The translations under genes were made by a program, and so were the position numbers. Of a stretch of 64,000 nucleotides of DNA, positions 4,604 to 23,663 are shown in pieces. The notes beneath the pieces were generated by a model. That model ran no database searches. It was not told the origin of the DNA and saw nothing but the letters and a program-made list of their open reading frames with translations. Each line of letters begins with the position of its first letter. Position 1 is the stretch's first letter. Where the stretch lies: contig JACPCP010000011.1 in the NCBI GenBank assembly GCA_016179745.1, forward strand, positions 41 to 64,040. Reading direction: 5' to 3'. The DNA comes from Candidatus Omnitrophota bacterium (GTDB taxonomy: Bacteria; Omnitrophota; Omnitrophia; Omnitrophales; JACQLI01).

Positions 4604-4743
4604 CTTTATCCCCTCCTCACAAATGCTCCGCTTTTTTTCGCCGCAAGAATAAGCTTTTGGACCCTTTCCCTCTAAGGATCGTCACTTTACCGTAACTCTT
4701 GATGGTTATAAAAGTTACGACCACTTTCTGAGGGGTCATGGAA

Positions 4744-4772
4744 ACTATAACACACGCTTCCTGGATTTACAA
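4744..4772 (-). promoter_or_regulatory. putative sigma70-type promoter for the PilZ gene (TTGTAA - 17 nt - TATAGT)
   Basis: Read on the reverse strand in the 187-bp lower-GC gap after yajQ. The -35 TTGTAA is the complement of 4767-4772 and the -10 TATAGT is the complement of 4744-4749, with a 17-nt spacer. It predicts a leader of roughly 135 nt. Motif match only. Confidence 0.4.
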
Positions 4773-4790
4773 GGGCCCGGCACGAATTTT

Positions 4791-5288
4791 TTAACGGTAA
4801 TTGACAAACTGGAGGGGGGCTGGAAACGGCAGGGCCTTCAAATGCTGAATGACGCTTTGCAAGTCGTCTTTGGAACGTGAAGTCACGCGCACTTCCTCTC
4901 CCTGGATCGAGGCCTGCACCTTCAAACCGGTGTCCTTCACGGCCCGAACAATCTGCTTGGCCTCTTCGCCCAAAATCCCGATCTTGAGCTTCACCTCTTG
5001 ACGCACCATCCCGTCAAAGGCCTTCTCCTCCTTGCCCCAGTCGAGCGATTTCAGGGCGATCTTCCGGGCCGCCACCCGGGTCTTGAGGATGTCCCGAAGA
5101 TTTTCAAGTTTGAGTTCATCGTCGGCAATCAGGACAATTTTATTTTCGGCCCGGTCCCAGTCCATCCGGCTCTTGCTCCCTCGGAAATCAAATCGCGTGG
5201 ACAATTCTTTCCTGGCCTGGTTCACGGCGTTATCCACTTCCTGCAAATCAACACGGGAAACAATATCGAAGGACGATTCGTTTTTCAC
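4791..5288 (-). CDS. yajQ: YajQ family nucleotide / c-di-GMP-binding protein (UPF0234)
   Basis: 165 aa. SFDIVSRVDLQEVDNAVNQARKELSTRFDFRGSK is the characteristic YajQ N-terminus. The GTG start overlaps the upstream PilZ gene's stop (GTGA, 5285-5288). Confidence 0.9.
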   Translation of the reverse strand: MKNESSFDIVSRVDLQEVDNAVNQARKELSTRFDFRGSKSRMDWDRAENKIVLIADDELKLENLRDILKTRVAARKIALKSLDWGKEEKAFDGMVRQEVKLKIGILGEEAKQIVRAVKDTGLKVQASIQGEEVRVTSRSKDDLQSVIQHLKALPFPAPLQFVNYR

Positions 5289-5677: not shown

Positions 5678-6475
5678 TCAAAGGCTTCGGACGAAGCTGT
5701 CCGGAAAATTCTGAGAGGCCGGAAGGGCACGGAATTTTTTCAGCTCTGCCTGGGCGTCCTCAAAGGTCTTGAAGGGCCCGAGGAACACGAGATGAAATGT
5801 TTTCCCGCTGGTGCGCCGGAGAGGTTTGCCAAACGCCGGCAGACCCGCCTCGATCATTTGTTTCACCACCCGCTCCCCGTCTGTCTCACGGGCATAAGTG
5901 GCTACCTGCACCACAAAAACCTTTTCTGCCGGCGGCGCCACCGGAGCCGGCTCGCTGACCCTTTCCGGAACCTCCTGCCCCTGGGCGGGGGCCGATTCAA
6001 TCGGAAGAGCGGACGGCCTCTCCGCCCGCTTAGGCGAGGGGCGAAGGAGAGTCGATTCTTCTCGAGGCGTGACGACCCGTGAAGGAGGTTTGGGATTTTT
6101 CATCGCCTCCGTCCGGTAAAGATTCAGGGCATTCACGGAAAGAAACAGGGATGCGGCCACCGTCCCCAGCGCAACCCATCCCATCGTTTTTCGCCCCGTG
6201 ATTCTCTTCAAAATTCCCCACACCGACTGGGCCAGCGTCACGAAGGCGGAACCCGCCTCCTTCCACGGGAAACGGGCGCTTTGATTATTTTTTGATTTCG
6301 TTTCGGGTCCGAGAGAGGACTCCTTGCGGAGAGGGTCGAGAAATTCAGTATTGATTTTCTCTTTGAGGGCGGGTTCTTCTTGATAGCTCCCGTAAAGTTT
6401 TTGCTGGATTTCCTTTTCGGTGAGCGGCCGGAGTGAATCCGGCCCCCGCTTGACCCCCAACCGGACTTTCAACAT
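5678..6475 (-). CDS. SPOR domain membrane protein
   Basis: 265 aa. Central TM segment (GWVALGTVAASLFLSV), a Pro-rich linker, and a C-terminal SPOR-like domain (FVVQVATYARETDGERVVKQMIEAGLPAF...FHLVFLGPFKTFEDAQ). Confidence 0.75.
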   Translation of the reverse strand: MLKVRLGVKRGPDSLRPLTEKEIQQKLYGSYQEEPALKEKINTEFLDPLRKESSLGPETKSKNNQSARFPWKEAGSAFVTLAQSVWGILKRITGRKTMGWVALGTVAASLFLSVNALNLYRTEAMKNPKPPSRVVTPREESTLLRPSPKRAERPSALPIESAPAQGQEVPERVSEPAPVAPPAEKVFVVQVATYARETDGERVVKQMIEAGLPAFGKPLRRTSGKTFHLVFLGPFKTFEDAQAELKKFRALPASQNFPDSFVRSL

Positions 6476-16104: not shown

Positions 16105-18885
16105 TTAAATTTCCTCAATCTCCTCATCGGAAATCCACCCCGTCTCCCCGTTCGGGAGCGACACCCGGTTCCAGGAATCCAGCTTTTTTTGAAGCCGCAC
16201 CTTCATCCCCTCGGCCAGACGAAAGGCCACCTGGTCTTTGTAAGACGGGCCGTAACGGACTGAGGCCTTGGGTTTCAGAACCACGGCCTCCCGGAGGGGA
16301 ACCTCCTTAAAAAGCCACAGGCCGGACGCCAGAACCAGAAAAACCAGCACGGTCTTCACCCGCCAACCCCAGGGCGCCCCTTTTCGAAAATAAAGAAGAT
16401 AAGCCCAGCTGCCCCAGAAAAGGACCCCCAGCCCGAGGAAAAGGACGCCGATTTCCTCCCGGGTGAAAAACCGGAGGACGGCCTCAAGGGCCCGGAAATA
16501 CCAATTCCTTTTGTCCTCGATCCGGTATTCCAAAAGGCTTGTGGCATACCTTAAGTTGGCGAGGGTGTCCGGATCCCGGGGCCGAAGCCGCCTCGATCGT
16601 TCGTAGTGAAGGATCGCCCGCCCCAGACGGCTCTCCTTGAAATACGCATTGCCGAGATTGTAATGAACGGCCGAATTCCTGAAACCCTGATCGATCAAAG
16701 ACTCGTAAAGCGAGGCCGCCTGGGAATAGTCCGCCGCCTGGTAGAGCCGGTTTGCCTCCCGGAAAATTTCAGCCGGGTCTTTCGGGGCTGAGAATCCGGG
16801 GACGGGAAATAAAAATGAGGCGAGCAAAACGCCGGTCCAGAAAAGGGACTTCAGTTTCGGCGGCACCTGGATCGGTGCCGTCCCCTCTTTTTCCAGACGG
16901 CGAATCACTCTTTCGATCAGGTCACAATATTGGCGCCTCTCGGCGGAAGGGAGCCCTCCCCGGGCAAAACGGGTCTCGCTCGCCAGGCCGTAGAATTTCC
17001 GGACCTCCTTCAAGAGCGGGTCCTCCCCGCCCCAAAGGCCCGTCAATTTTTCCTCGAGCCACTCCCGGGTAAAATGATAGGCGGAGAGGTTGAACTTGTT
17101 CGAGAAATATTCACTCAAACCCTTCTCCGCCTCCTCCATAAATTGGAGCGCCTCCTCCTCCCTGGAGCTTCCCGCCAGACGCTTCAAAAATTTCAGGCGG
17201 CGAAGCGCTGTGGACCGGGCCGTCACCCTCCGGCGAAGCGCTTCGTCCTGACTGAATCGCCTCTCCCGGCGCCGCCGGACGAGGCCGTTTCCAACCAGCA
17301 CAAGGCCCAGAAAATTCACAACCGCCAAAAACCGGTAAACCAGCGCCCACCCCCGGGCCGACTTCGGAGAAGGAAGCTCCTCGTGAATGAAACGAATGTC
17401 TTTGGCCTCCAGCTGGACTTCCTTTTTGAAGGCCGCTTTCTCCGCCAGCTCCGCCGGAAGACGGAGGGGCTCGTCCGAGGGCGCCACCTGAAGAGGAAAG
17501 GAGGGCGTCCGGAGAACTTGATAATTCTGGGAACGGGGCTCAAAAAAACTAAATTCCAGGGACGGGATCGAAAGCTCGCCGGCCTCCGTCGGGACAAAGA
17601 TAATTTCAAAGGTCTTTTTGCCGGCAATCGTGGTCCCGGATTTAAAGAGCTGCGACGAGGAGTCCCCGTCGTAAATTTTGAAACCGGTCAATTCCGGGAT
17701 CGGCGGCCGGGGCAGGGTCTCGACATTTCCCTCCCCCTCCAAAACGACCTTCAAGGTCAGGGGCTCATTTTGTTTGAGTTCCCGCTTGTCCACCGAGGCC
17801 TCGATCCGGAAGCGGCCCACGGCCCCGTTGAAACTCGCCGGCTTCCCGTGTTCGGGCAGCGGCTTGACCGTCACCGTCAGGGGTTCCGGTTTTAAGAGGC
17901 GCTCCACCCGCCGGCCAAAAAATCCGGAGCCGCTGAAAAAGCTGTCATTGAAAAACTCGTCAAAGATGCTGGTGGTCTTGGGCTCTTCCTCGACCGAAAT
18001 TTTCAAGACCCCGGGCTGGAGGGTGTATTGGGCGGCTGCTGTGGGAAAAAGGGCAATTTTTCGCACGTCGGCCTTGACGTAGCGCCGGCCGTCCACCGTG
18101 ACGGTCTCCTTCCCCAGGTCCCGGTCCAGCGGAAAATCTTCGATCCAAAAGCCGCTGATCGAAGGCTCTTCTTCAAAACCCTCGTAGCGGGTGTCGTAGC
18201 GGGTGTAAAGCGAATAGGTCAGAAGCACCTGTTCATTGGGAAAGACGACGGGCTTGTCGACCCACGCCTTCACGAAAACATTTTCATCCTGCAGCAATTG
18301 CGGCCGTCCGCCGGACGGCCGGGAGGCCGGGAGTGCCGCCGCCGTGCCAGCCGCACGGTGCCGGACAATCGAGCGGCCGATCGCCGCTTGACCAACCGCA
18401 ACCGGAGGCGGAGGGCTCCCAAATTGCGGCCTTGCCGCCTGCAAACCCGCTCCCCCCATCGCTGAAGGGGCCTGGGCGACGGGGGTCTGCCCGGACTGGA
18501 TTTGCGGTGACAAAACCTCGAGGGGAATCGGCTGAGTGCGGTAACTTTTTCCGCCGATCCAGACCTCAATCGGGTTTAACGTAAACTCGCCGGCCACTTT
18601 CGGGACCAGGATGTAGTTGAATTCCACATTGGAACTTGATTTCCCGTTCACAAAAGTAAACTGACTCGACCGTCCCGTGTAGAACGAGTCGAAACCCTGA
18701 AGGGCCGGCAGCCGGGGGGCCTGGAGGTTCCCCCGGGCCCCCGTGATCTGGATGGTCAAGGACACTTCTTCATCAATTTGGGGGCGGCTTGTGTCGACCG
18801 TGGCGCTCACCTGGACTTCCTCGGCCGAGGCGCCGTAACGGGTGACGAGAAAGAGGAATCCAAAAAATAAAAAGGCTCTTTTCAT
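16105..18885 (-). CDS. BatD-like protein fused to a TPR + SH3-like (BatC/BatE-like) C-terminal module
   Basis: 926 aa. Signal peptide, then BatD-like repeats (VSATVDTSRPQIDEEVSLTIQITG..., EFNYILVPKVAGEFTL). TM segments around residues 520-545 and 690-710. TPR repeats (ANRLYQAADYSQAASLYE...YNLGNAYFK...ILHYERS). C-terminal SH3-like end (WNRVSLPNGETGWISDEEI). Confidence 0.7.
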   Translation of the reverse strand: MKRAFLFFGFLFLVTRYGASAEEVQVSATVDTSRPQIDEEVSLTIQITGARGNLQAPRLPALQGFDSFYTGRSSQFTFVNGKSSSNVEFNYILVPKVAGEFTLNPIEVWIGGKSYRTQPIPLEVLSPQIQSGQTPVAQAPSAMGGAGLQAARPQFGSPPPPVAVGQAAIGRSIVRHRAAGTAAALPASRPSGGRPQLLQDENVFVKAWVDKPVVFPNEQVLLTYSLYTRYDTRYEGFEEEPSISGFWIEDFPLDRDLGKETVTVDGRRYVKADVRKIALFPTAAAQYTLQPGVLKISVEEEPKTTSIFDEFFNDSFFSGSGFFGRRVERLLKPEPLTVTVKPLPEHGKPASFNGAVGRFRIEASVDKRELKQNEPLTLKVVLEGEGNVETLPRPPIPELTGFKIYDGDSSSQLFKSGTTIAGKKTFEIIFVPTEAGELSIPSLEFSFFEPRSQNYQVLRTPSFPLQVAPSDEPLRLPAELAEKAAFKKEVQLEAKDIRFIHEELPSPKSARGWALVYRFLAVVNFLGLVLVGNGLVRRRRERRFSQDEALRRRVTARSTALRRLKFLKRLAGSSREEEALQFMEEAEKGLSEYFSNKFNLSAYHFTREWLEEKLTGLWGGEDPLLKEVRKFYGLASETRFARGGLPSAERRQYCDLIERVIRRLEKEGTAPIQVPPKLKSLFWTGVLLASFLFPVPGFSAPKDPAEIFREANRLYQAADYSQAASLYESLIDQGFRNSAVHYNLGNAYFKESRLGRAILHYERSRRLRPRDPDTLANLRYATSLLEYRIEDKRNWYFRALEAVLRFFTREEIGVLFLGLGVLFWGSWAYLLYFRKGAPWGWRVKTVLVFLVLASGLWLFKEVPLREAVVLKPKASVRYGPSYKDQVAFRLAEGMKVRLQKKLDSWNRVSLPNGETGWISDEEIEEI

Positions 18886-19000
18886 GGGATTTTGGGCAGC
18901 AATTTTAACATAGATTGGAAGGCCCCACAGCTTAAAGTTGAATTCGGACTACGACTCCATCGTCACGGCGTGGCCGTGGGAGACGAGTTCCTGACGGTAG

Positions 19001-19168
19001 TCACTTTTTTCTCTTTTTCAAGAGGTAGACCACTTTTTCGCCGCGCCAAACAGCCGCAGGAACTCCGGCGGCTTCGTGTTGGCGAATCGCCTTTGTGACG
19101 GCGCTCTTAATCGCCTTGAGCGCACCTGCGTGGAGCGCCTCAACACTTTGGGTCCTGCTTCTCTTCAT
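19001..19168 (-). CDS. 55-aa basic hypothetical protein (possible antitoxin/partner of the zeta-like ATPase)
   Basis: Below the ORF-track size cutoff. Hand translation from ATG 19168-19166 gives MKRSRTQSVEALHAGALKAIKSAVTKAIRQHEAAGVPAAVWRGEKVVYLLKKRKK, ending at TGA 19003-19001. Its ATG overlaps the stop of the upstream P-loop gene (ATGA). Confidence 0.55.
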   Translation of the reverse strand: MKRSRTQSVEALHAGALKAIKSAVTKAIRQHEAAGVPAAVWRGEKVVYLLKKRKK

Positions 19169-19749
19169 GTTGCCTCCGCCAATTTCAAAATTCTGTCGTA
19201 GAGTTTTCGATCAAAAATTCTCACCTTCACCGACTTTTCTTCGGCAATCAGGCGAGGCGCGCTGCCTGAATTGTCAAACAACATCCACGAATCGAACAGG
19301 GCCTGATAGTGCTCAAAAAAATTCTTAATCCCCCTATAAAAACGCCTGCGCACCACCTTTTCAGCAATCGCGTGCCCGCCCATTTTGACACGGCTCGCCA
19401 CACGAGCCAGTGAGAGCTCGACGTCCGGAATCCAAAGAAAGAAAAGATGGGCTGCGTAACCCTCCTTCTTGAGGTCTCTGAGGCGAGAAAGATAGTTGAG
19501 GCCGGAGAGTGTCGTTTCAAAAGCAAAGTCAATCTTCCTGGACGCGTAACTCTCGATCTGTTCGAGTGAAATCCGTCCTGCTTTTAACGCCACCGCGTCC
19601 GGGGAAAAACCCGACAGGCCCCGTGCCAGGGTGTCCGCATTAATAAAGGTGGGGCAATCAGCGTATTTCGGAAGAAACTCCGTCGCGAAGGTCGTTTTCC
19701 CAGAACCGTTCGCTCCGGCGATGATGTAAATTTGCGGTTGTTTACCCAT
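19165..19749 (-). CDS. zeta-toxin-like P-loop kinase/ATPase (COG4185-type)
   Basis: 194 aa. Walker A IIAGANGSGKTT, then FINADTLARGL, and the family-typical C-terminal region GGHAIAEKVVRRRFYRGIKNF...MLFDNS. Confidence 0.8.
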   Translation of the reverse strand: MGKQPQIYIIAGANGSGKTTFATEFLPKYADCPTFINADTLARGLSGFSPDAVALKAGRISLEQIESYASRKIDFAFETTLSGLNYLSRLRDLKKEGYAAHLFFLWIPDVELSLARVASRVKMGGHAIAEKVVRRRFYRGIKNFFEHYQALFDSWMLFDNSGSAPRLIAEEKSVKVRIFDRKLYDRILKLAEAT

Positions 19750-20704
19750 AGTCTAGGAAGGATTCGAGCCGGGGGCGGTGGATTTCGAGGAAGCGGAGGA
19801 CCCGCTCCAGACTCTCCCGGTTTTTCAGGCGGCCCCGCAGAAGGAAGCCTTCTGCCTCAAAATTCTCCGGGCGTTCAATCTGAATGCCCTCGCCCGAAAG
19901 CTGGGACTGGAGGCGGCGAAACTTCGATTCGGCCTCGGTCAGCCGTGGAAAACGCAGAGACCGGACCCGCTCGAAAAGCCTTTCTCCCCTTCCCCGGTCG
20001 TCCATTTCCGAAGGTTTGAAAATTTCCCGGAATTCCCCCGCCTGGATCAGCGCTTCAAGGGAACACTTTTTTATTTTCCTCAAATCGAAAAACCACTCGG
20101 CAACGAGCCGGACCTGATTGGTCGTGAGGTGGGCTTTTTCAAAAACCTCCCGGGCCAGAAACCCCTGCTCCTCCCGGCTGAAACGCCGGAGACCCGAAAG
20201 ACCCCGAAAAGAAAGCCTCCCCTGAAAGACCAGACGGTGGACTTCGGGGGCAAGACCGGCTGTCCTGCGGTATTCTTCCAGGGCCCCCCGGCCGGGGGAA
20301 AGCCCGAGCGCCGGAAAAATTTCTTCCAGAATCTCCTCCTCGGAGAAACCAAAGACGGCTTCTGCCTTTTGGAGGGCCGTCATTCGGTCAAGCTCGGAAA
20401 AATTCTGGTTCCAATTCGAATAAACCGCCAGAAGGAAAAATTCCTTTTCGGACAAATCTTCCGGAACCCAGGCAGCCGGGACCCTCTCCAAGGATTTCCG
20501 GCGGGCAAAGGCAAGGCGCCTGTGGCCCGAGATTAAAACGGCCGGACCGTCCCCGGAAGGGCGCAGAAGCACGGGACAAAGAATGCCTCTCTTCTCGAAG
20601 GAGGCCTCGAGGCGGGGATCGTTTCCTTCAAAACGAAACCCGTAGGGCCGCTCCTTCGAAATCGCCTCGACCGAAATTAATTCGCACTCAGCGTGTCTTT
20701 CCAT
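19742..20704 (-). CDS. ParB/Spo0J-like N-terminal domain + HTH protein (no adjacent ParA)
   Basis: 320 aa. ParB box LISGHRRLAFARRKSLERVPAAWV, then an ENxxR-like region (AVYSNWNQNFSELDRMTALQKA) and an HTH-like segment (GFSEEEILEEIFPALGLSPGRGALEEYRRTAGLAPEV). Confidence 0.7.
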   Translation of the reverse strand: MERHAECELISVEAISKERPYGFRFEGNDPRLEASFEKRGILCPVLLRPSGDGPAVLISGHRRLAFARRKSLERVPAAWVPEDLSEKEFFLLAVYSNWNQNFSELDRMTALQKAEAVFGFSEEEILEEIFPALGLSPGRGALEEYRRTAGLAPEVHRLVFQGRLSFRGLSGLRRFSREEQGFLAREVFEKAHLTTNQVRLVAEWFFDLRKIKKCSLEALIQAGEFREIFKPSEMDDRGRGERLFERVRSLRFPRLTEAESKFRRLQSQLSGEGIQIERPENFEAEGFLLRGRLKNRESLERVLRFLEIHRPRLESFLDYG

Positions 20705-22926
20705 TCCTTCTCCAGTTCCAGGGGAGAAATCTTCAAGACTTCCTGGATCACCTCAAACGAATCTTTTCCCTGGGCAAATTGCTCCAGCATTTTCCTGAGA
20801 CTGAACATTCCGTAGCGCCCGGCTAAATAGCTCACGAGTTGAAAGGATTGCTCGTAAAAAAGCTCGGCCTCCAAGGGATCCTTCACCGCAAGCAGCCTTT
20901 CCTGGCCCAGGAGCGTCTCGATCGGAAAAAGAGTTTTGGACCGAATCGCCGCCCGAAAGACCGTGAGGTCCGGAGCGGAAATTTTGGCTTCCTCGTATTC
21001 CGCCAGCCCCTCGTTCAGCCAGGGGGGGCAGAGCCGCCGGCTGATTTCCACCACAAAGGCGTGCGTCAGTTCGTGGCGCATAACCTTCTCGATTTCTTCC
21101 TGGGAAAAGCCCTTCTCGTAGGCCGGAAGACGGATTTTGCCGTCATAAACCCCGATCGTCCAGTGGGGGGCCCGGATCAAATCCCGGAATTCCTTTTCAT
21201 CATAGAGAAGCACCGGAATTTTTTGTTTGAAAAAATACCCCAGGTCCTGCCCGATCTCCCGGTAGGCCTTTCGCAGGGCCTCGCTCAGCCCATAACCCTC
21301 GAGCCCCTTCTCCTCCCCTCGATACATAATAATGAAGTGCTCCTCGGGGTAATGGGTCATCGTGGCCTCGACCTTTTTCTCCTTCTGGGTGCGGAAGATT
21401 TTTTCTTTCAGATCATTACGGGCCCGCACACGAAAAGCGGCGAGGTAATGCTCTTCCGCCTCCCCGAGCTTCTGCTCATAGTAAGCAATGTCGCCCAGAA
21501 GCTCGTGGGCAAAGGCATTCCGGGGATCGTAGGCGATGGAGTCCTTGAGCGCCTCCCGGGCCAGCTCAAACTCATTCTTCTGATAAAATTCAACGGCCTG
21601 GTTGTAAAGCTCGATGGAGAGCGGAACCTTCAAGCCGGCATTGTCCTTGGGCCGCCCCAGGAGAAAATTCATGATCTCGGTGCGGCCCCGGTTTTCCAAA
21701 TCATTTTTTGCTTCCTCCCGCTCCGAACTGGCGCCCGTCTCCGAATAAGCTTCGTCCGCATACGATTCGTAGGCTAAGAGCCCGCCGGAGCCCGGCGTCC
21801 CGAGAACCCCGACGAAGAAAAGAAGTCCGAGAAATTTCCGGGCCCTTGCAATCCTCTTGGCGATCGGGGGGTGCGTGTAAAACCACCACTCGATGACAGG
21901 GTGAGGCTCAGGGTCCGCCAGGTTCAGTGTAGCCAGCTTCTCCATTGCCGGAATGAATCCTTGGGGACCACACGCCTCGAGGGAAAACCGGTCGGCCTCC
22001 GCCTCCCGCCACCGGGAATAGGCGTGGCTCAAAGGGGTCAAAACAACTCCCAACAAAGTGAACACGAGGTAAAGGAGCGGGAAGGCGGCCAAGTCCTCTG
22101 CTCCCGCAAACCCGAGCGGGATCGCCAGCCGTTTCACGATCTCAAAGGCCAGAAAAAAACCCACGAAGGATGTGGCGGCATTGAAGGCCAGGTGATGCCA
22201 AATATCACGGTGTTTGTAATGCCCGAGTTCGTGCGCCACCACACTTTCGATTTCCTCCTCCGTGAAATCCCGGATCAGCGTGTCGCTCAGGACGAGGCGC
22301 TTCGTCCGGCCGAGGCCCGCAAACATTGCATTCGCTTTTTTGGTGGTCTTGCTCAGATTGAGTGAATAGACATTTTCCACGGGAAGCTGGAACCGCCGGA
22401 CCAGCCGGAAGATCCTCTCCCTGAGCGAATCGTTGTCAACCCGGCTGTAGCGGTAAAAAAGCGGGACGATCAGGACCGGAAAAAGCTGCCCCAAAAGATA
22501 ACTAAACCCCGCATACCCGAGCCACGCCCAAATCCACCAGCGTTCCGGAGAGCGGCCAATCGCCCCGTAAAGGCCCAGGACCAGAAGGGCCGAGATCGTG
22601 AAAATCAAAACCGTCCTTTTGAGGAACTCGACCGTCCACTGTTTAAAATTCTGATTCGTGAGGCCGTAACGCTGTTCGAGCCGGTACCCGGAATAGAATT
22701 CAAGCGGCAGTCCACAGAGCCAGACAAAATCAAAAAAGAAACCGTAATAAAGGAGGATCTGTAGAAAAGGCTGCCGGGCCCACGCCAAGGCCCAATCCCG
22801 GAAGACAAAGGTAAGCCCCGTGCTCATTAAAAAGACCAGCGCCCCCACCTGAACGGCAAGGTGGGCCAGCGCTGCCACGTGTTTCTTCCGCTGATAGATT
22901 TTTGCTTGTTCTACTTTGTCACTCAT
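20677..22926 (-). CDS. M48 (Ste24/HtpX-like) membrane metalloprotease fused to TPR repeats and a second gluzincin-like domain
   Basis: Start re-set to ATG 22926-22924 (MSDKVEQAK...), an ATGA overlap with the upstream gene's stop. Multi-TM N-terminal half with HELGHYKHRD (HExxH). TPR-like middle (YNQAVEFYQKNEFELAREALKDSIAYDP...). C-terminal HELTHAF followed ~20 aa later by NEGLAEYEE (HExxH...E). Confidence 0.8.
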   Translation of the reverse strand: MSDKVEQAKIYQRKKHVAALAHLAVQVGALVFLMSTGLTFVFRDWALAWARQPFLQILLYYGFFFDFVWLCGLPLEFYSGYRLEQRYGLTNQNFKQWTVEFLKRTVLIFTISALLVLGLYGAIGRSPERWWIWAWLGYAGFSYLLGQLFPVLIVPLFYRYSRVDNDSLRERIFRLVRRFQLPVENVYSLNLSKTTKKANAMFAGLGRTKRLVLSDTLIRDFTEEEIESVVAHELGHYKHRDIWHHLAFNAATSFVGFFLAFEIVKRLAIPLGFAGAEDLAAFPLLYLVFTLLGVVLTPLSHAYSRWREAEADRFSLEACGPQGFIPAMEKLATLNLADPEPHPVIEWWFYTHPPIAKRIARARKFLGLLFFVGVLGTPGSGGLLAYESYADEAYSETGASSEREEAKNDLENRGRTEIMNFLLGRPKDNAGLKVPLSIELYNQAVEFYQKNEFELAREALKDSIAYDPRNAFAHELLGDIAYYEQKLGEAEEHYLAAFRVRARNDLKEKIFRTQKEKKVEATMTHYPEEHFIIMYRGEEKGLEGYGLSEALRKAYREIGQDLGYFFKQKIPVLLYDEKEFRDLIRAPHWTIGVYDGKIRLPAYEKGFSQEEIEKVMRHELTHAFVVEISRRLCPPWLNEGLAEYEEAKISAPDLTVFRAAIRSKTLFPIETLLGQERLLAVKDPLEAELFYEQSFQLVSYLAGRYGMFSLRKMLEQFAQGKDSFEVIQEVLKISPLELEKEWKDTLSAN

Positions 22927-23663
22927 TGGAATTCCGCCAGAAGGCCAAAGTGGTCCGAGGCCCAAAATCCCTTTGAACCCGGGGCCGTAAAAATCAGGCC
23001 GCTTGATTTCAAATTTTTCAAAAGGGGGCCGGCGCCTCTCGCCAAGATATAATCAATCCGCCGGTCGGGCATTTTGTGAAGGGAGCCCCCGGCATAAGGA
23101 TTCCGATTGTCCCAGCTAAAACCCGCCTCGCCGGGATGACACAGCCGAAAGGTGTCCCGGAACCCCCCTTCCCGGATCAGCGTTTGAATTTCCTCGGAAT
23201 CGGGCGGCGCATTCAAGTCGCCTACGAGAACGGCCTCTTTTCCGGCGGATTTTTCCTCGATGAGCTGAAGCACTTCCTGGACTTGTTTCCTCCGGGTCGC
23301 CCCGTCCTCCAGTTTCCAGGAAAGGTGCGTATTGAAAAAATAAAGGGCCTCCCCCGCCACTTTCAATTCCGCCCACAGGACACCCCGAAAATATTCTTCC
23401 AGGGGAGATTGAGTGAGCTGAACCATTCCCCAGGACGCCGCCGGGTAATTGGCGTAAAGCGCAAGCCCGCAATTTTCCTCCGGGAAAATCAAAGTGGAAA
23501 AACCGGCCCGTTTTTGGACCGTCTCCGCCCACGAACGGTTGAAGAGCTCCTGAAACGCCGCAATCTGGGGGCATAGGCGCCCGACCCCTTCAAACGTCAC
23601 CTCCCACCGATCTTTCCAGGGGGCCCCCAGTTCCTGCCAGGTGTTGAGGGTCAAAATCTTCAC
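22923..23663 (-). CDS. endonuclease/exonuclease/phosphatase (EEP) family protein
   Basis: ILTLNTWQ start, VGDLNAPPDS and a C-terminal SDHFGL motif. Start set to GTG 23663-23661, just after the arsC-like stop. The tracked ORF extends to 23729. Confidence 0.8.
   Translation of the reverse strand: MKILTLNTWQELGAPWKDRWEVTFEGVGRLCPQIAAFQELFNRSWAETVQKRAGFSTLIFPEENCGLALYANYPAASWGMVQLTQSPLEEYFRGVLWAELKVAGEALYFFNTHLSWKLEDGATRRKQVQEVLQLIEEKSAGKEAVLVGDLNAPPDSEEIQTLIREGGFRDTFRLCHPGEAGFSWDNRNPYAGGSLHKMPDRRIDYILARGAGPLLKNLKSSGLIFTAPGSKGFWASDHFGLLAEFQ

What the first reader, a model, noticed from the sequence alone, without database searches (positions are those of the whole stretch)
19001..20704. Translationally coupled ParB-like / zeta-toxin-like P-loop / 55-aa ORF cassette inside a housekeeping array
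Three consecutive minus-strand ORFs are linked by overlaps. The ParB-like stop and the P-loop start overlap by 8 nt (19742-19749). The P-loop stop and the small-ORF start form ATGA (19165-19168). The middle gene has the zeta/PezT-type signature (GANGSGKT, FINADT, GGHAI..RRRF, DNS). The first gene has a full ParB N-terminal box (GHRRLAFARR) plus an HTH-like region, but there is no ParA nearby. Zeta-family toxins normally pair with a small upstream antitoxin. Here the only small partner is downstream, and a ParB/CTPase-fold DNA-binding protein lies upstream. I do not recognise that arrangement as a described system. The P-loop and small genes are modestly lower in GC (31/60 and 32/60 on lines 19621 and 19321) than the ParB-like gene and its neighbours (~36/60). 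That suggests the last two genes are an acquired module docked behind the ParB-like gene.
Basis: partly seen in the sequence, partly recalled or inferred. Interest (0 to 1): 0.7.

Follow-up and report, generated by a model that had tools for sequence, protein, structure and literature searches.

The report
Mobile zeta-kinase pair, not a trio
Two of the three linked genes are a small, horizontally moving toxin-antitoxin-like pair (a zeta-type kinase followed by a small partner protein that has no family name), and this pair has landed on the stop codon of an unrelated, lineage-specific ParB-like gene, so the "three-gene system" is an accident of insertion.

Summary
There are three minus-strand ORFs (320, 194 and 55 aa) with an 8-nt overlap and an ATGA overlap, a Zeta_toxin-type P-loop gene, a ParB-fold gene and a modest GC dip.

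The three-gene interpretation does not hold. In nine other Omnitrophota neighbourhoods the ParB-like gene always follows an M48/MA peptidase, with a 19-28-nt overlap, and is never followed by a zeta gene. A 90%-identical contig shows the empty site. None of 80 zeta-homolog loci from many phyla has a ParB-like neighbour.

About 814 nt (window 18941-19754) is an insertion. It starts 5 nt before the zeta ATG and removed the native ParB-like stop codon.

The real unit is the pair. About 85 of 86 evaluable zeta homologs carry a homologous 46-85-aa ORF immediately downstream (ATGA overlap in 55 of 73). That small protein has no Pfam, NCBIfam or PDB match. The kinase's closest fold is AvrRxo1, whose antitoxin is also encoded downstream.

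Decay patterns fit a toxin-then-antitoxin module: five loci have a dead or deleted kinase with an intact small gene, and one shows the reverse. Toxicity is untested.

Side finding: in about 14% of loci the pair is flanked by diverged duplicates of the host gene's 3' end.

The parts
20677..22965 (-). M48 + MA_2 peptidase gene. It is the conserved upstream partner of the ParB-like gene, and its 3' end overlaps the ParB-like start by 28 nt.
   Evidence: Pfam Peptidase_M48 108 bits, M48_N 84 bits, Peptidase_MA_2 57 bits. The same peptidase/ParB-like overlap of 19-28 nt is seen in all nine related neighbourhoods.
19742..20704 (-). ParB-like gene (320 aa). It is a resident, Omnitrophota-specific gene and not part of the mobile pair. 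Its last three codons and its stop (DYG*) come from the insert.
   Evidence: 33 homologs, the named ones from Omnitrophica, at 90 to 23% identity. The close clade ends ...LESLL*, whereas the window copy ends ...LESFLDYG*. Fold match to ParB/Noc/KorB.
18941..19754 (-). Inserted segment of about 814 nt: 5 nt of leader, the zeta-like gene, the small gene and a 60-nt tail. It replaces about 16-20 nt of the empty site, including the native stop codon.
   Evidence: The empty-site contig L092 aligns to window positions up to 19760 and again from 18940 downward, with 20 unrelated nt in between. L007 aligns down to 19755 and then diverges. GC is 52.4% against 57.3%.
19165..19749 (-). Zeta-like P-loop kinase gene (194 aa), the putative toxin. 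It has no Shine-Dalgarno sequence, and its ATG lies inside the ParB-like stop region (ATGGGTAA).
   Evidence: Pfam Zeta_toxin 45.4 bits, above the gathering score. More than 2013 homolog clusters at 67-82% identity among the top hits. AlphaFold pLDDT 82.6. Best PDB fold matches are AvrRxo1-ORF1 (E=2.6e-9, TMq 0.78), then PezT and zeta. SD scan.
19173..19177 (-). GGAGG Shine-Dalgarno sequence for the small ORF, embedded in the last codons of the kinase gene.
   Evidence: Sequence read directly. An SD-like motif precedes the small ORF in 73% of 73 loci but precedes the kinase gene in only 25%.
19001..19168 (-). Small partner gene (55 aa), the putative antitoxin. It belongs to an unnamed family with the core pattern A-L-K/R-x-A-V/A...G-x-P-h-h-h-W-x-x-G-K-V-V.
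   Evidence: Profile match of 43 bits. Family alignment A2. No Pfam, NCBIfam or PDB match for 40 members. An ORF of this family lies immediately downstream of about 85 of 86 zeta homologs.
18941..19000 (-). 60-nt non-coding tail of the insert, with no recognisable element.
   Evidence: No similarity to the ParB-like 3' end. No terminal inverted or direct repeats. No Rfam match. No terminator-like site here.
16105..18885 (-). BatD-TPR-SH3 gene, the resident downstream neighbour. In the empty-site relative it follows the ParB-like gene directly.
   Evidence: Pfam BatD 130 bits, TPR_16, SH3_4. ParB-like followed by BatD with a gap of about 30-65 nt in L001, L002, L005, L006, L101 and L092.

Best explanation
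The locus holds two unrelated things.

(1) A resident gene array that is conserved in Omnitrophota: M48/MA peptidase, then the ParB-like gene, then BatD-TPR-SH3, then TrpB.

(2) An inserted two-gene module of about 814 nt, made of a zeta-like P-loop kinase and a small protein encoded immediately after it. The module landed on the stop codon of the ParB-like gene.

The 8-nt ParB-like/kinase overlap is a by-product of that insertion. The native stop was lost, so the ParB-like frame runs three codons into the insert and ends at a TAA formed by kinase codons 2-3.

I infer that the pair works as a reverse-order (toxin first) type II-like toxin-antitoxin or abortive-infection module. In this reading the kinase uses ATP to phosphorylate an essential nucleotide-type metabolite, as zeta/PezT do with UDP-GlcNAc and AvrRxo1 does with NAD. 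The small protein binds and blocks the kinase.

The module has no conserved flanks. In this window the scan found no promoter-like site for it, and the kinase gene has no Shine-Dalgarno sequence. I therefore infer that it is transcribed by read-through from the host operon. The kinase would be translated weakly by termination-reinitiation at ATGGGTAA. The small partner would be translated strongly from its own GGAGG, which keeps the antitoxin in excess.

Shown here: the insertion, the mobility, the near-universal kinase/small-gene linkage, the fold, and the decay asymmetry. Inferred: toxicity, neutralisation, substrate and mode of expression.
For: Insertion and independence from the ParB-like gene:
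- Empty site in L092, whose ParB-like gene is 90% identical.
- A different module (AbiEii + HTH_3) sits at the same junction in L007.
- Nine ParB-like neighbourhoods lack a zeta gene but always have the peptidase upstream.
- No ParB-like gene in any of the 80 genome loci found by the zeta-homolog scan.
- Both genes lie 95 kb apart on one contig.
- GC dip.

The pair is a unit:
- A small-family ORF follows the kinase gene in 78 of 88 loci by a strict rule and in about 85 of 86 after inspection.
- ATGA overlap in 55 of 73 loci. The two proteins co-diverge (Mantel r=0.58, 0 of 999 permutations). Mean identity is 0.51 for the kinase and 0.27 for the small protein, as is usual for toxin versus antitoxin.
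- DNA similarity between modules starts exactly at the kinase ATG and ends inside the small ORF.

Mobility:
- Relatives occur in Planctomycetota, Elusimicrobia, Acidobacteriota, Verrucomicrobiota, Proteobacteria and Cyanobacteria.
- 534 plasmid records match the kinase, all below 60% identity, so they include the wider Zeta_toxin family. One example lies next to a Tn3 transposase in Legionella, and another lies inside the type I RM/DarTG island of Synechocystis pSYSG.
- One copy lies next to a DDE transposase.

Toxin-like nature of the kinase:
- Pfam Zeta_toxin above threshold.
- Fold closest to AvrRxo1, PezT and zeta.
- The kinase gene is pseudogenised or deleted while the small gene stays intact in L039, L061, L056, L078 and L008. 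Only one locus shows the reverse, L071. The same pattern is reported for avrRxo1:arc1 (PMC4938570).

Expression asymmetry: SD present before the kinase gene in 25% of loci and before the small gene in 73%.
Against: - No experiment shows toxicity or rescue for any member of this clade.
- By sequence the kinase is far from every solved structure; only the Walker A region aligns. Pfam AAA_33 also matches.
- Clostridium thermocellum polynucleotide kinase is also a good fold match (E about 1e-6), so a non-toxic kinase role is not excluded.
- The small protein has no recognisable DNA-binding or known antitoxin domain.
- PADLOC defence models do not match.
- The promoter scan finds no site in the region but covers only sigma-70-type consensus, so an internal promoter cannot be ruled out.
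- The census covers the best 80 of at least 460 genome hits and is not phylogenetically corrected.
Confidence: 0.72

Rival explanations
1. One reading: a three-component system in which the ParB-like DNA-binding protein regulates or works with the kinase and the small protein, by analogy with omega-epsilon-zeta.
For: The junctions are translationally coupled (8-nt and 4-nt overlaps). The ParB-like protein has a true ParB/KorB-type fold with an HTH, and KorB-type proteins can act as repressors.
Against: There is no co-occurrence outside this window: 0 of 9 ParB-like neighbourhoods and 0 of 80 zeta loci. An empty site exists in a 90%-identical relative. The constant partner of the ParB-like gene is the M48/MA peptidase. 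The 8-nt overlap was created by loss of the native stop. About a third of modules dock just as tightly behind unrelated genes.
Confidence: 0.03
2. The pair is not a toxin-antitoxin module. It would be a benign accessory kinase, for example a nucleotide, polynucleotide or antibiotic kinase of the AAA_33/Pnkp type, with a small regulatory or specificity subunit.
For: AAA_33 matches at 29 bits. Polynucleotide kinases and gluconate/adenylate kinases are also fold neighbours. Some AvrRxo1 homologs are not toxic in E. coli (PMC4938570). There is no PADLOC match.
Against: Distribution across phyla is patchy, with 70-82% identity between distant hosts. The module occurs in plasmid, transposon and defence-island settings. 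Decay is asymmetric, with the kinase lost and the small gene kept. The 4-nt coupled two-gene layout is very tight, and the second gene evolves faster. All of these are typical of addiction modules.
Confidence: 0.15
3. The roles are reversed, as in type VII systems: the small protein is the toxin and the kinase neutralises it by phosphorylation.
For: Kinase antitoxins exist (established knowledge of type VII systems such as TakA/TglT; not tested here). The small gene has the stronger ribosome-binding site.
Against: Small genes persist alone or next to dead kinase genes in five loci (L008, L039, L056, L061, L078). A toxin without its neutraliser should not survive in this way. The kinase is the more conserved partner, as toxins usually are.
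Confidence: 0.04
4. The same pair acts mainly as an abortive-infection or phage-defence module rather than as a plasmid or island addiction module. This is a variant of the best explanation and does not exclude it.
For: The module sits inside a type I RM/DarTG defence island in Synechocystis pSYSG and behind RM methylase or specificity genes in L060, L062 and L077. The same insertion site in a relative holds an AbiEii module.
Against: No match to 5027 PADLOC models. No phage-challenge data exist. Many copies lie in housekeeping contexts.
Confidence: 0.25

Closest known systems
AvrRxo1 (ORF1) : Arc1 (ORF2) of Xanthomonas, Acidovorax and Burkholderia
   Same: Both have a zeta-like P-loop kinase toxin with its neutralising small protein encoded immediately downstream. 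AvrRxo1 is the best structural match of the window kinase (4z8q_A, E=2.6e-9, TMq 0.78). Both modules have lower GC than the host and variable flanking genes, and in both the antitoxin gene is kept intact next to inactivated toxin genes (PMC4938570).
   Different: AvrRxo1 is about 420 aa and carries a type III secretion region, whereas this kinase is 194 aa and only 20% identical. Arc1 is 81-121 aa, predicted to be helical, with a KExFD...YExxYY motif. The small family here is 46-85 aa, lacks that motif and has a G-x-P-h-h-h-W-x-x-G-K-V-V core. The NAD 3'-kinase activity of AvrRxo1 is from my own knowledge and cannot be transferred to this protein.
Epsilon/zeta and PezAT (type II TA; UDP-GlcNAc kinases)
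   Same: Pfam Zeta_toxin domain above threshold. Walker A, and an Asp in the position of the catalytic Asp67 of zeta (INAD39T; the role of Asp67 is from PMC3062530 and PMC5923241). PezT and zeta are fold matches (E about 1e-7 to 1e-6).
   Different: In those systems the antitoxin is upstream (a three-helix-bundle epsilon, or HTH-PezA). Here it is downstream and unrelated. Sequence identity is 14-18%, and no sequence-level PDB hit goes beyond the P-loop. The substrate here is unknown.
Rv0367c-Rv0366c (ParD-like antitoxin + 197-aa zeta-like toxin) of M. tuberculosis
   Same: A short (about 195 aa) zeta-like kinase paired with a non-epsilon partner. It shows that this toxin fold swaps antitoxins (PMC6504116; PMC6362051 listed).
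   Different: The partner is upstream and ParD-like, whereas here it is downstream and of an unnamed family.
Variable cassettes at fixed intergenic sites between conserved genes ("minimal mobile elements" of Neisseria; from my own knowledge, not tested)
   Same: One junction between two conserved genes (ParB-like and BatD) is found empty (L092), holding zeta+small (window) or holding AbiEii+HTH (L007) in close relatives.
   Different: That concept was defined in naturally transformable Neisseria. Nothing is known about transformation or recombination in Omnitrophota.

Membership tests
Epsilon/zeta - PezAT toxin-antitoxin family | Toxin carries the Zeta_toxin (PF06414) P-loop phosphotransferase domain | tested here: met
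   45.4 bits against a gathering score of 22.3, covering residues 3-163. The fold matches PezT 2p5t and zeta 1gvn/3q8x.
Epsilon/zeta - PezAT toxin-antitoxin family | Walker A lysine plus a catalytic Asp (Asp67 in zeta) after the second strand | tested here: inconclusive
   G12-x-N-G-x-G-K18-T19 and N37-A-D39 are invariant in 20 homologs, and they lie in the expected order. No residue-level structural superposition was done.
Epsilon/zeta - PezAT toxin-antitoxin family | Epsilon or PezA antitoxin encoded upstream of the toxin | tested here: not met
   The upstream gene is the unlinked ParB-like gene. Upstream neighbours differ across the 80 loci. The conserved partner lies downstream and matches no Pfam or NCBIfam antitoxin model.
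Epsilon/zeta - PezAT toxin-antitoxin family | UDP-GlcNAc (or UDP-MurNAc) kinase activity that causes growth arrest | not testable with these tools
   This needs a kinase assay and toxicity or rescue experiments.
AvrRxo1:Arc1 module | Toxin gene first, with the small neutralising gene immediately downstream | tested here: met
   ATGA overlap in the window. The same order holds in about 85 of 86 loci.
AvrRxo1:Arc1 module | Arc1-type partner (81-121 aa, helical, KExFD...YExxYY motif) | tested here: not met
   The motif, as described in PMC4938570, is absent from the 40-member alignment A2. The size is 46-85 aa.
AvrRxo1:Arc1 module | Sequence-level homology of the toxin to AvrRxo1 | tested here: not met
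   There is no AvrRxo1 chain among sequence hits to the PDB even at E<=10. The similarity is at fold level only, with 20% identity.
Three-gene regulator + antitoxin + toxin operon (omega-epsilon-zeta type) | Conserved linkage of the DNA-binding regulator gene with the toxin-antitoxin pair | tested here: not met
   0 of 9 ParB-like neighbourhoods and 0 of 80 zeta loci show linkage.
ParB / Noc / KorB (ParB-CTPase) family, for the 320-aa gene | ParB N-terminal domain followed by an HTH DNA-binding domain | tested here: met
   Foldseek matches to M. xanthus ParB, Noc, Spo0J and KorB over about 200 columns, E=1e-8 to 1e-5. Pfam ParB_N is below threshold for this sequence but is on record for 8 homologs (P0135, P0141, P0143, P0144, P0147, P0148, P0150, P0151).
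ParB / Noc / KorB (ParB-CTPase) family, for the 320-aa gene | CTP-binding and hydrolysis boxes (GxxRxxA box II; ENLQR box III; the box definitions are from my own knowledge) | tested here: inconclusive
   G60-H-R63-R is conserved. The box III position reads S96-N-W-N-Q100 in the whole family, so the acidic residue is missing.
ParB / Noc / KorB (ParB-CTPase) family, for the 320-aa gene | Adjacent ParA-type ATPase (partition operon) | tested here: not met
   The neighbours are the M48/MA peptidase and BatD in the window and in nine relatives.
Integron gene cassette (considered because the module is compact and shows no promoter-like site) | Conserved attC-type imperfect inverted repeat at the 3' end of the cassette | tested here: not met
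   DNA similarity between modules ends inside the small ORF. There are no terminal inverted repeats and no shared sequence at cassette borders in loci with flank repeats.

The most novel reading that the evidence does not exclude
The zeta-like kinase/small-protein pair may be a promoterless "operon-parasitic" cassette with its own recurrent way of entering genomes. It attaches to the very end of arbitrary host genes, so that it borrows their transcription and is translated by termination-reinitiation. Its insertion or spread often leaves two diverged copies of the host gene's last 18-110 nt on either side of the cassette. That pattern would fit a circular [gene-end + cassette] intermediate integrating by a single crossover, or homology-facilitated illegitimate recombination. 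Neither a transposase, nor an integrase, nor conserved cassette ends would be needed.
Probability: 0.2. Interest if true: 0.7.

Novelty: new variant of a known kind. Interest (0 to 1): 0.42.

Why it matters
For this window, the result removes a false lead. There is no ParB-zeta system here, and the ParB-like gene belongs with an M48/MA peptidase.

More generally, it defines a very widespread and strongly conserved zeta-like kinase clade. It has more than 2000 protein clusters and at least 460 genome hits across many phyla, including plasmids of Synechocystis and Legionella. Its constant partner is a small downstream protein that has no family name, no structure and no published function.

Surveys that look for zeta antitoxins only upstream (for example the 2023 PezAT review) would class these kinases as orphans. 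Naming the partner family would reclassify many "orphan zeta toxins" as complete reverse-order modules. It would also give a compact pair of 194 aa plus about 55 aa for biochemical work on what this kinase branch phosphorylates.

The flanking duplicates of host gene ends, if confirmed, would offer a handle on how toxin-antitoxin cassettes that lack their own mobility genes move between genomes.

Tried and rejected
- Integron-cassette idea: no conserved 3' element and no terminal inverted repeats.
- Transposon-like ends or a target-site duplication at the window insert: none found. The 60-nt tail shows no similarity to the ParB-like 3' end (z=-0.3).
- RNA element in the region: no Rfam match at E<=1.
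- Known defence system: only P-loop-level noise against PADLOC.
- Named family for the small protein: Pfam, NCBIfam and PDB profile searches on 40 members gave nothing consistent. One member hit PhdYeFM at E=0.03, which I treat as chance.
- Arc1 relationship: the motif is absent.
- Own promoter or terminator for the module: no promoter-like site at all between 18700 and 20900. The terminator-like sites inside the genes are at background frequency.
- Literature: no paper containing "COG4185". None of the toxin-antitoxin papers I opened mentions a downstream partner for this zeta clade. Kopfmann et al. 2016 list the Synechocystis pair sll8004/ssl8003 only as "related to TA modules" that failed their criteria.
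- Phage origin: only 4 weak hits in 50,697 phage records.
Full report
**1. The observation**

The three minus-strand ORFs exist as described: 19742-20704 (320 aa), 19165-19749 (194 aa) and 19001-19168 (55 aa). The junctions are ATGGGTAA, an 8-nt overlap, and ATGA, a 4-nt overlap.

The middle protein passes Pfam's Zeta_toxin threshold (45.4 bits against 22.3) and also matches AAA_33. Its motifs are invariant or nearly invariant among 20 homologs.

The first protein is below Pfam's ParB_N threshold (22.3 against 26.3 bits). However, a confident AlphaFold model (pLDDT 87.9) matches ParB, Noc, Spo0J and KorB over about 200 columns that cover the N-terminal domain and the HTH (E=1e-8).

The GC dip is real but small. 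The inserted segment is 52.4% against a window mean of 57.3% (sd 3.4), which is the 4.4th percentile. The source organism is a Candidatus Omnitrophica MAG.

**2. The ParB-like gene is a resident gene with a different partner**

Its 33 homologs fall off smoothly from 90% to 23% identity, and the named ones are all from Omnitrophica. I looked at nine other neighbourhoods: L001/L002, L003/L004, L005/L006, L007, L092, L099, L100 and L101.
- In all of them the gene is preceded by an M48/MA-type peptidase gene whose end overlaps its start by 19-28 nt, as in the window.
- It is followed by BatD, by other genes, or in L007 by an AbiEii + HTH_3 module.
- It is never followed by a zeta-like gene.

One 180-kb contig carries both a ParB-like gene (followed directly by BatD) and a zeta+small pair. 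The kinase is 82% identical to the window's, and the pair lies about 95 kb away.

**3. The empty site**

Contig L092 has a ParB-like gene 90% identical to the window's. It aligns with the window through the ParB-like gene to ...CTCGAATCC and again from CAACTTTAAGCTG..., the BatD leader (93% identity). It has 20 nt where the window has about 819 nt.

L007 (79% ParB-like identity; 83.6% DNA identity over 7 kb) diverges from the window at position 19755 and carries its own different module there.

Relatives end ...LESLL-stop, whereas the window ends ...LESFLDYG-stop. The insert therefore begins in the last Leu codon, 5 nt before the kinase ATG. It removed the native stop, and the ParB-like frame now ends at the TAA formed by kinase codons 2-3. 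The "translational coupling" between the first two genes is thus a consequence of the insertion. The insert spans window 18941-19754.

I found no terminal repeats, no duplication of the ParB-like 3' end, no RNA family and no promoter-like site.

**4. The real unit is the pair**

A scan of one genome per species found at least 460 relatives of the kinase. I examined the best 80 loci, which come from Omnitrophota, Planctomycetota, Elusimicrobia, Acidobacteriota, Verrucomicrobiota, several proteobacterial classes and other groups.

Almost all have a 46-85-aa ORF directly after the kinase gene.
- These ORFs are homologous to one another (alignment A2).
- A profile built without the window ORF and its three close relatives scores the window's 55-aa ORF at 43 bits.
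- By a strict positional rule, 78 of 88 loci have the small gene in place. Seven of the other ten also have it (my rule missed them because the ORF start was called too far upstream), two are at contig ends and one (L071) lacks it.
- The kinase stop and small-gene start overlap as ATGA in 55 of 73 loci.
- The two proteins co-diverge (Mantel r=0.58, 0 of 999 permutations). The kinase is the more conserved partner (mean identity 0.51 against 0.27).

Upstream genes are unrelated from locus to locus: GDP-mannose dehydratase, RM methylase, HsdS, ABC-F, NadE, UvrD-like and others. None of the 80 loci has a ParB-like gene.

The small family matches no Pfam, NCBIfam or PDB family. An exhaustive search with a narrow three-sequence profile found 56 cluster representatives, almost all of them small stand-alone proteins.

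**5. What the pair most likely is**

The kinase model (pLDDT 82.6) is closest to AvrRxo1-ORF1 (E=2.6e-9, TMq 0.78). PezT, zeta and bacterial polynucleotide kinase follow. By sequence it is far from all solved structures.

AvrRxo1:Arc1 is an experimentally shown toxin-antitoxin pair in which the antitoxin is encoded downstream. In that system the antitoxin gene stays intact beside inactivated toxin genes (PMC4938570). The same asymmetry appears here.
- The kinase gene carries stop codons or frameshifts while the small gene is intact in L039, L061, L056 and L078.
- In L008 the kinase gene is deleted up to 18 nt before the small gene.
- Only one locus has a kinase gene without the small gene (L071).

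Contexts are typical of mobile addiction or defence modules.
- 534 plasmid records match the kinase, all below 60% identity, so they include the wider Zeta_toxin family.
- One copy lies next to a Tn3 transposase in a Legionella plasmid.
- One lies inside the type I RM/DarTG island of Synechocystis pSYSG as sll8004/ssl8003. Kopfmann et al. noted these only as "related to TA modules".
- One lies next to a DDE transposase.

I therefore read the pair as a reverse-order type II-like toxin-antitoxin module with a new antitoxin family. Toxicity, binding and substrate are inferences, not results.

**6. Expression (inferred)**

DNA similarity between modules begins exactly at the kinase ATG and ends inside the small ORF, so the module brings no conserved promoter region. 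A Shine-Dalgarno-like motif precedes the kinase gene in 25% of loci and the small gene in 73%. In the window it is GGAGG, 4 nt before the ATG.

In 23 of 69 loci a same-strand frame of at least 100 codons ends within 12 nt of the kinase start or overlaps it by 1-8 nt. Out-of-frame stop codons occur within the first 11 nt of the kinase gene in 76% of loci, against 47% of control ORFs. That control is crude and not phylogenetically corrected.

This fits weak, reinitiation-dependent translation of the toxin and strong independent translation of the antitoxin, driven by host-operon transcription.

**7. Unexpected side finding**

In 10 of 71 modules, against 1 of 345 random control segments (Fisher p=1e-7), the pair is flanked by imperfect direct repeats of 18-110 nt at about 80-97% identity. 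These repeats differ from locus to locus.
- In the clearest cases (L052, L095, L018) the upstream copy is the 3' end of the host gene, ending at or overlapping the kinase start. The downstream copy starts 4-10 nt after the small gene's stop.
- Those three downstream copies, and L053's, keep the reading frame and a stop codon.
- In L052, from the isolate Azomonas agilis DSM 375, the two copies differ by 9 synonymous and 2 non-synonymous changes, plus TGA against TAG. This suggests two diverged functional alleles rather than decay of a fresh duplication.
- Pooled over four loci the skew is not significant (16 synonymous to 12 non-synonymous, my count).

The window's own insert has no such repeat. 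A metagenome scan for an empty site of L095 found only the occupied locus. The mechanism remains open. Campbell-type integration of a [gene-end + cassette] circle and homology-facilitated illegitimate recombination are both candidates.

**8. Comparison with the known, and verdict**

The kinase is a member of the Pfam Zeta_toxin superfamily. The module fails the defining epsilon/PezA-upstream feature of the epsilon/zeta-PezAT family. It also fails the Arc1-type partner feature and shows no sequence-level homology to AvrRxo1. It works like AvrRxo1:Arc1 in layout but is not a member of that family.

The 2023 PezAT survey searched only upstream genes for partners of orphan zeta toxins. TASmania reports ParD-like and HTH_3 partners. 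None of the papers I opened describes this downstream partner family.

The three-gene cassette as proposed is not a real system. The pair is a new variant of a known kind. It is widespread, already annotated as "zeta toxin family protein" plus "hypothetical protein", and uncharacterised. Interest is moderate. The flank-repeat and docking behaviour is the part most likely to hold something new.

Noticed in passing
L052 3871-3980 / 4697-4806; L095 4905-4989 / 5771-5855; L018 3928-3999 / 4807-4878; also L017, L074, L053, L012, L034, L010, L009, L032: The zeta+small module is flanked by locus-specific imperfect direct repeats of 18-110 nt. In the clearest cases (L052, L095, L018) the upstream copy is the 3' end of the host gene, and the downstream copy, which still has its frame and stop codon, starts 4-10 nt after the small gene. 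This occurs in 10 of 71 modules against 1 of 345 control segments. In L052 the two copies differ mostly by synonymous changes.
   Followed up: partly
L007 6955-8334, compared with window 18941-19754 and L092 1682-1692: The junction after the ParB-like stop codon exists in three states in close relatives: empty (L092), zeta+small (window), and an AbiEii toxin + HTH_3 pair with its own TTGACA-17-TAAAAT promoter-like site (L007). This points to an insertion hot spot for toxin-antitoxin-type modules.
   Followed up: yes
window 19742-20704 and 20677-22965; L001-L007, L099-L101: The ParB-like protein forms an Omnitrophota-specific family that is always encoded right after an M48/Peptidase_MA_2 gene, with a 19-28-nt overlap. 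It has ParB box II (GHRR), but the box III position reads SNWNQ instead of the usual ENLQR-type motif. Other family-wide motifs are LPALGL, LTTNQ and LRFPRL, and there is a C-terminal region of about 110 aa with no ParB counterpart. Its function with a membrane peptidase is unknown.
   Followed up: partly
L008 1361-1546; L039, L061, L056, L078; L053 2017-2184: Small-partner genes persist without a working kinase. In L008 the kinase gene is deleted up to 18 nt before the small gene, which there sits near a Fic gene. Four loci have stop codons or frameshifts in the kinase gene with an intact small gene. L053 has an extra small-family ORF upstream of a complete module.
   Followed up: partly
L090 2474-3186 (Synechocystis sp. 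PCC 6803 plasmid pSYSG, sll8004/ssl8003); L091 2498-3263 (Legionella pneumophila plasmid): The same kinase + small-gene pair occurs in model organisms. In pSYSG it lies between a type I RM S subunit/nucleotidyltransferase and a DUF4433 + macro-domain (DarTG-like) pair. In Legionella it lies directly after a Tn3 transposase. RefSeq calls the small genes "hypothetical protein".
   Followed up: partly
first 11 nt of the kinase genes in 74 loci (window 19739-19749): The conserved N-terminus M-x-K is encoded so that out-of-frame stop codons (ATGA, ATGnnTAA) fall within the first 11 nt in 76% of loci, against 47% of control ORFs. Any upstream reading frame therefore ends at the kinase start. Eight loci have 4-nt overlaps and five have 8-nt overlaps with an upstream frame of at least 100 codons. 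The control is crude and phylogeny was not corrected for.
   Followed up: partly
window 16105-18885: BatD, TPR and SH3 are fused into one 926-aa ORF here, whereas relatives encode BatD (about 630-640 aa) and a TPR/SH3 protein (about 250 aa) as two overlapping genes.
   Followed up: no
L009 50-85 / 856-891 and L008 about 1325-1352: In L009 the last 36 nt of the small gene are repeated upstream of the kinase gene, which suggests tandem or nested modules. A 27-nt sequence (GAACCCGGCACC.CCGGAAATGGTA) lies downstream of the small gene in L009 but upstream of the orphan small gene in L008.
   Followed up: no
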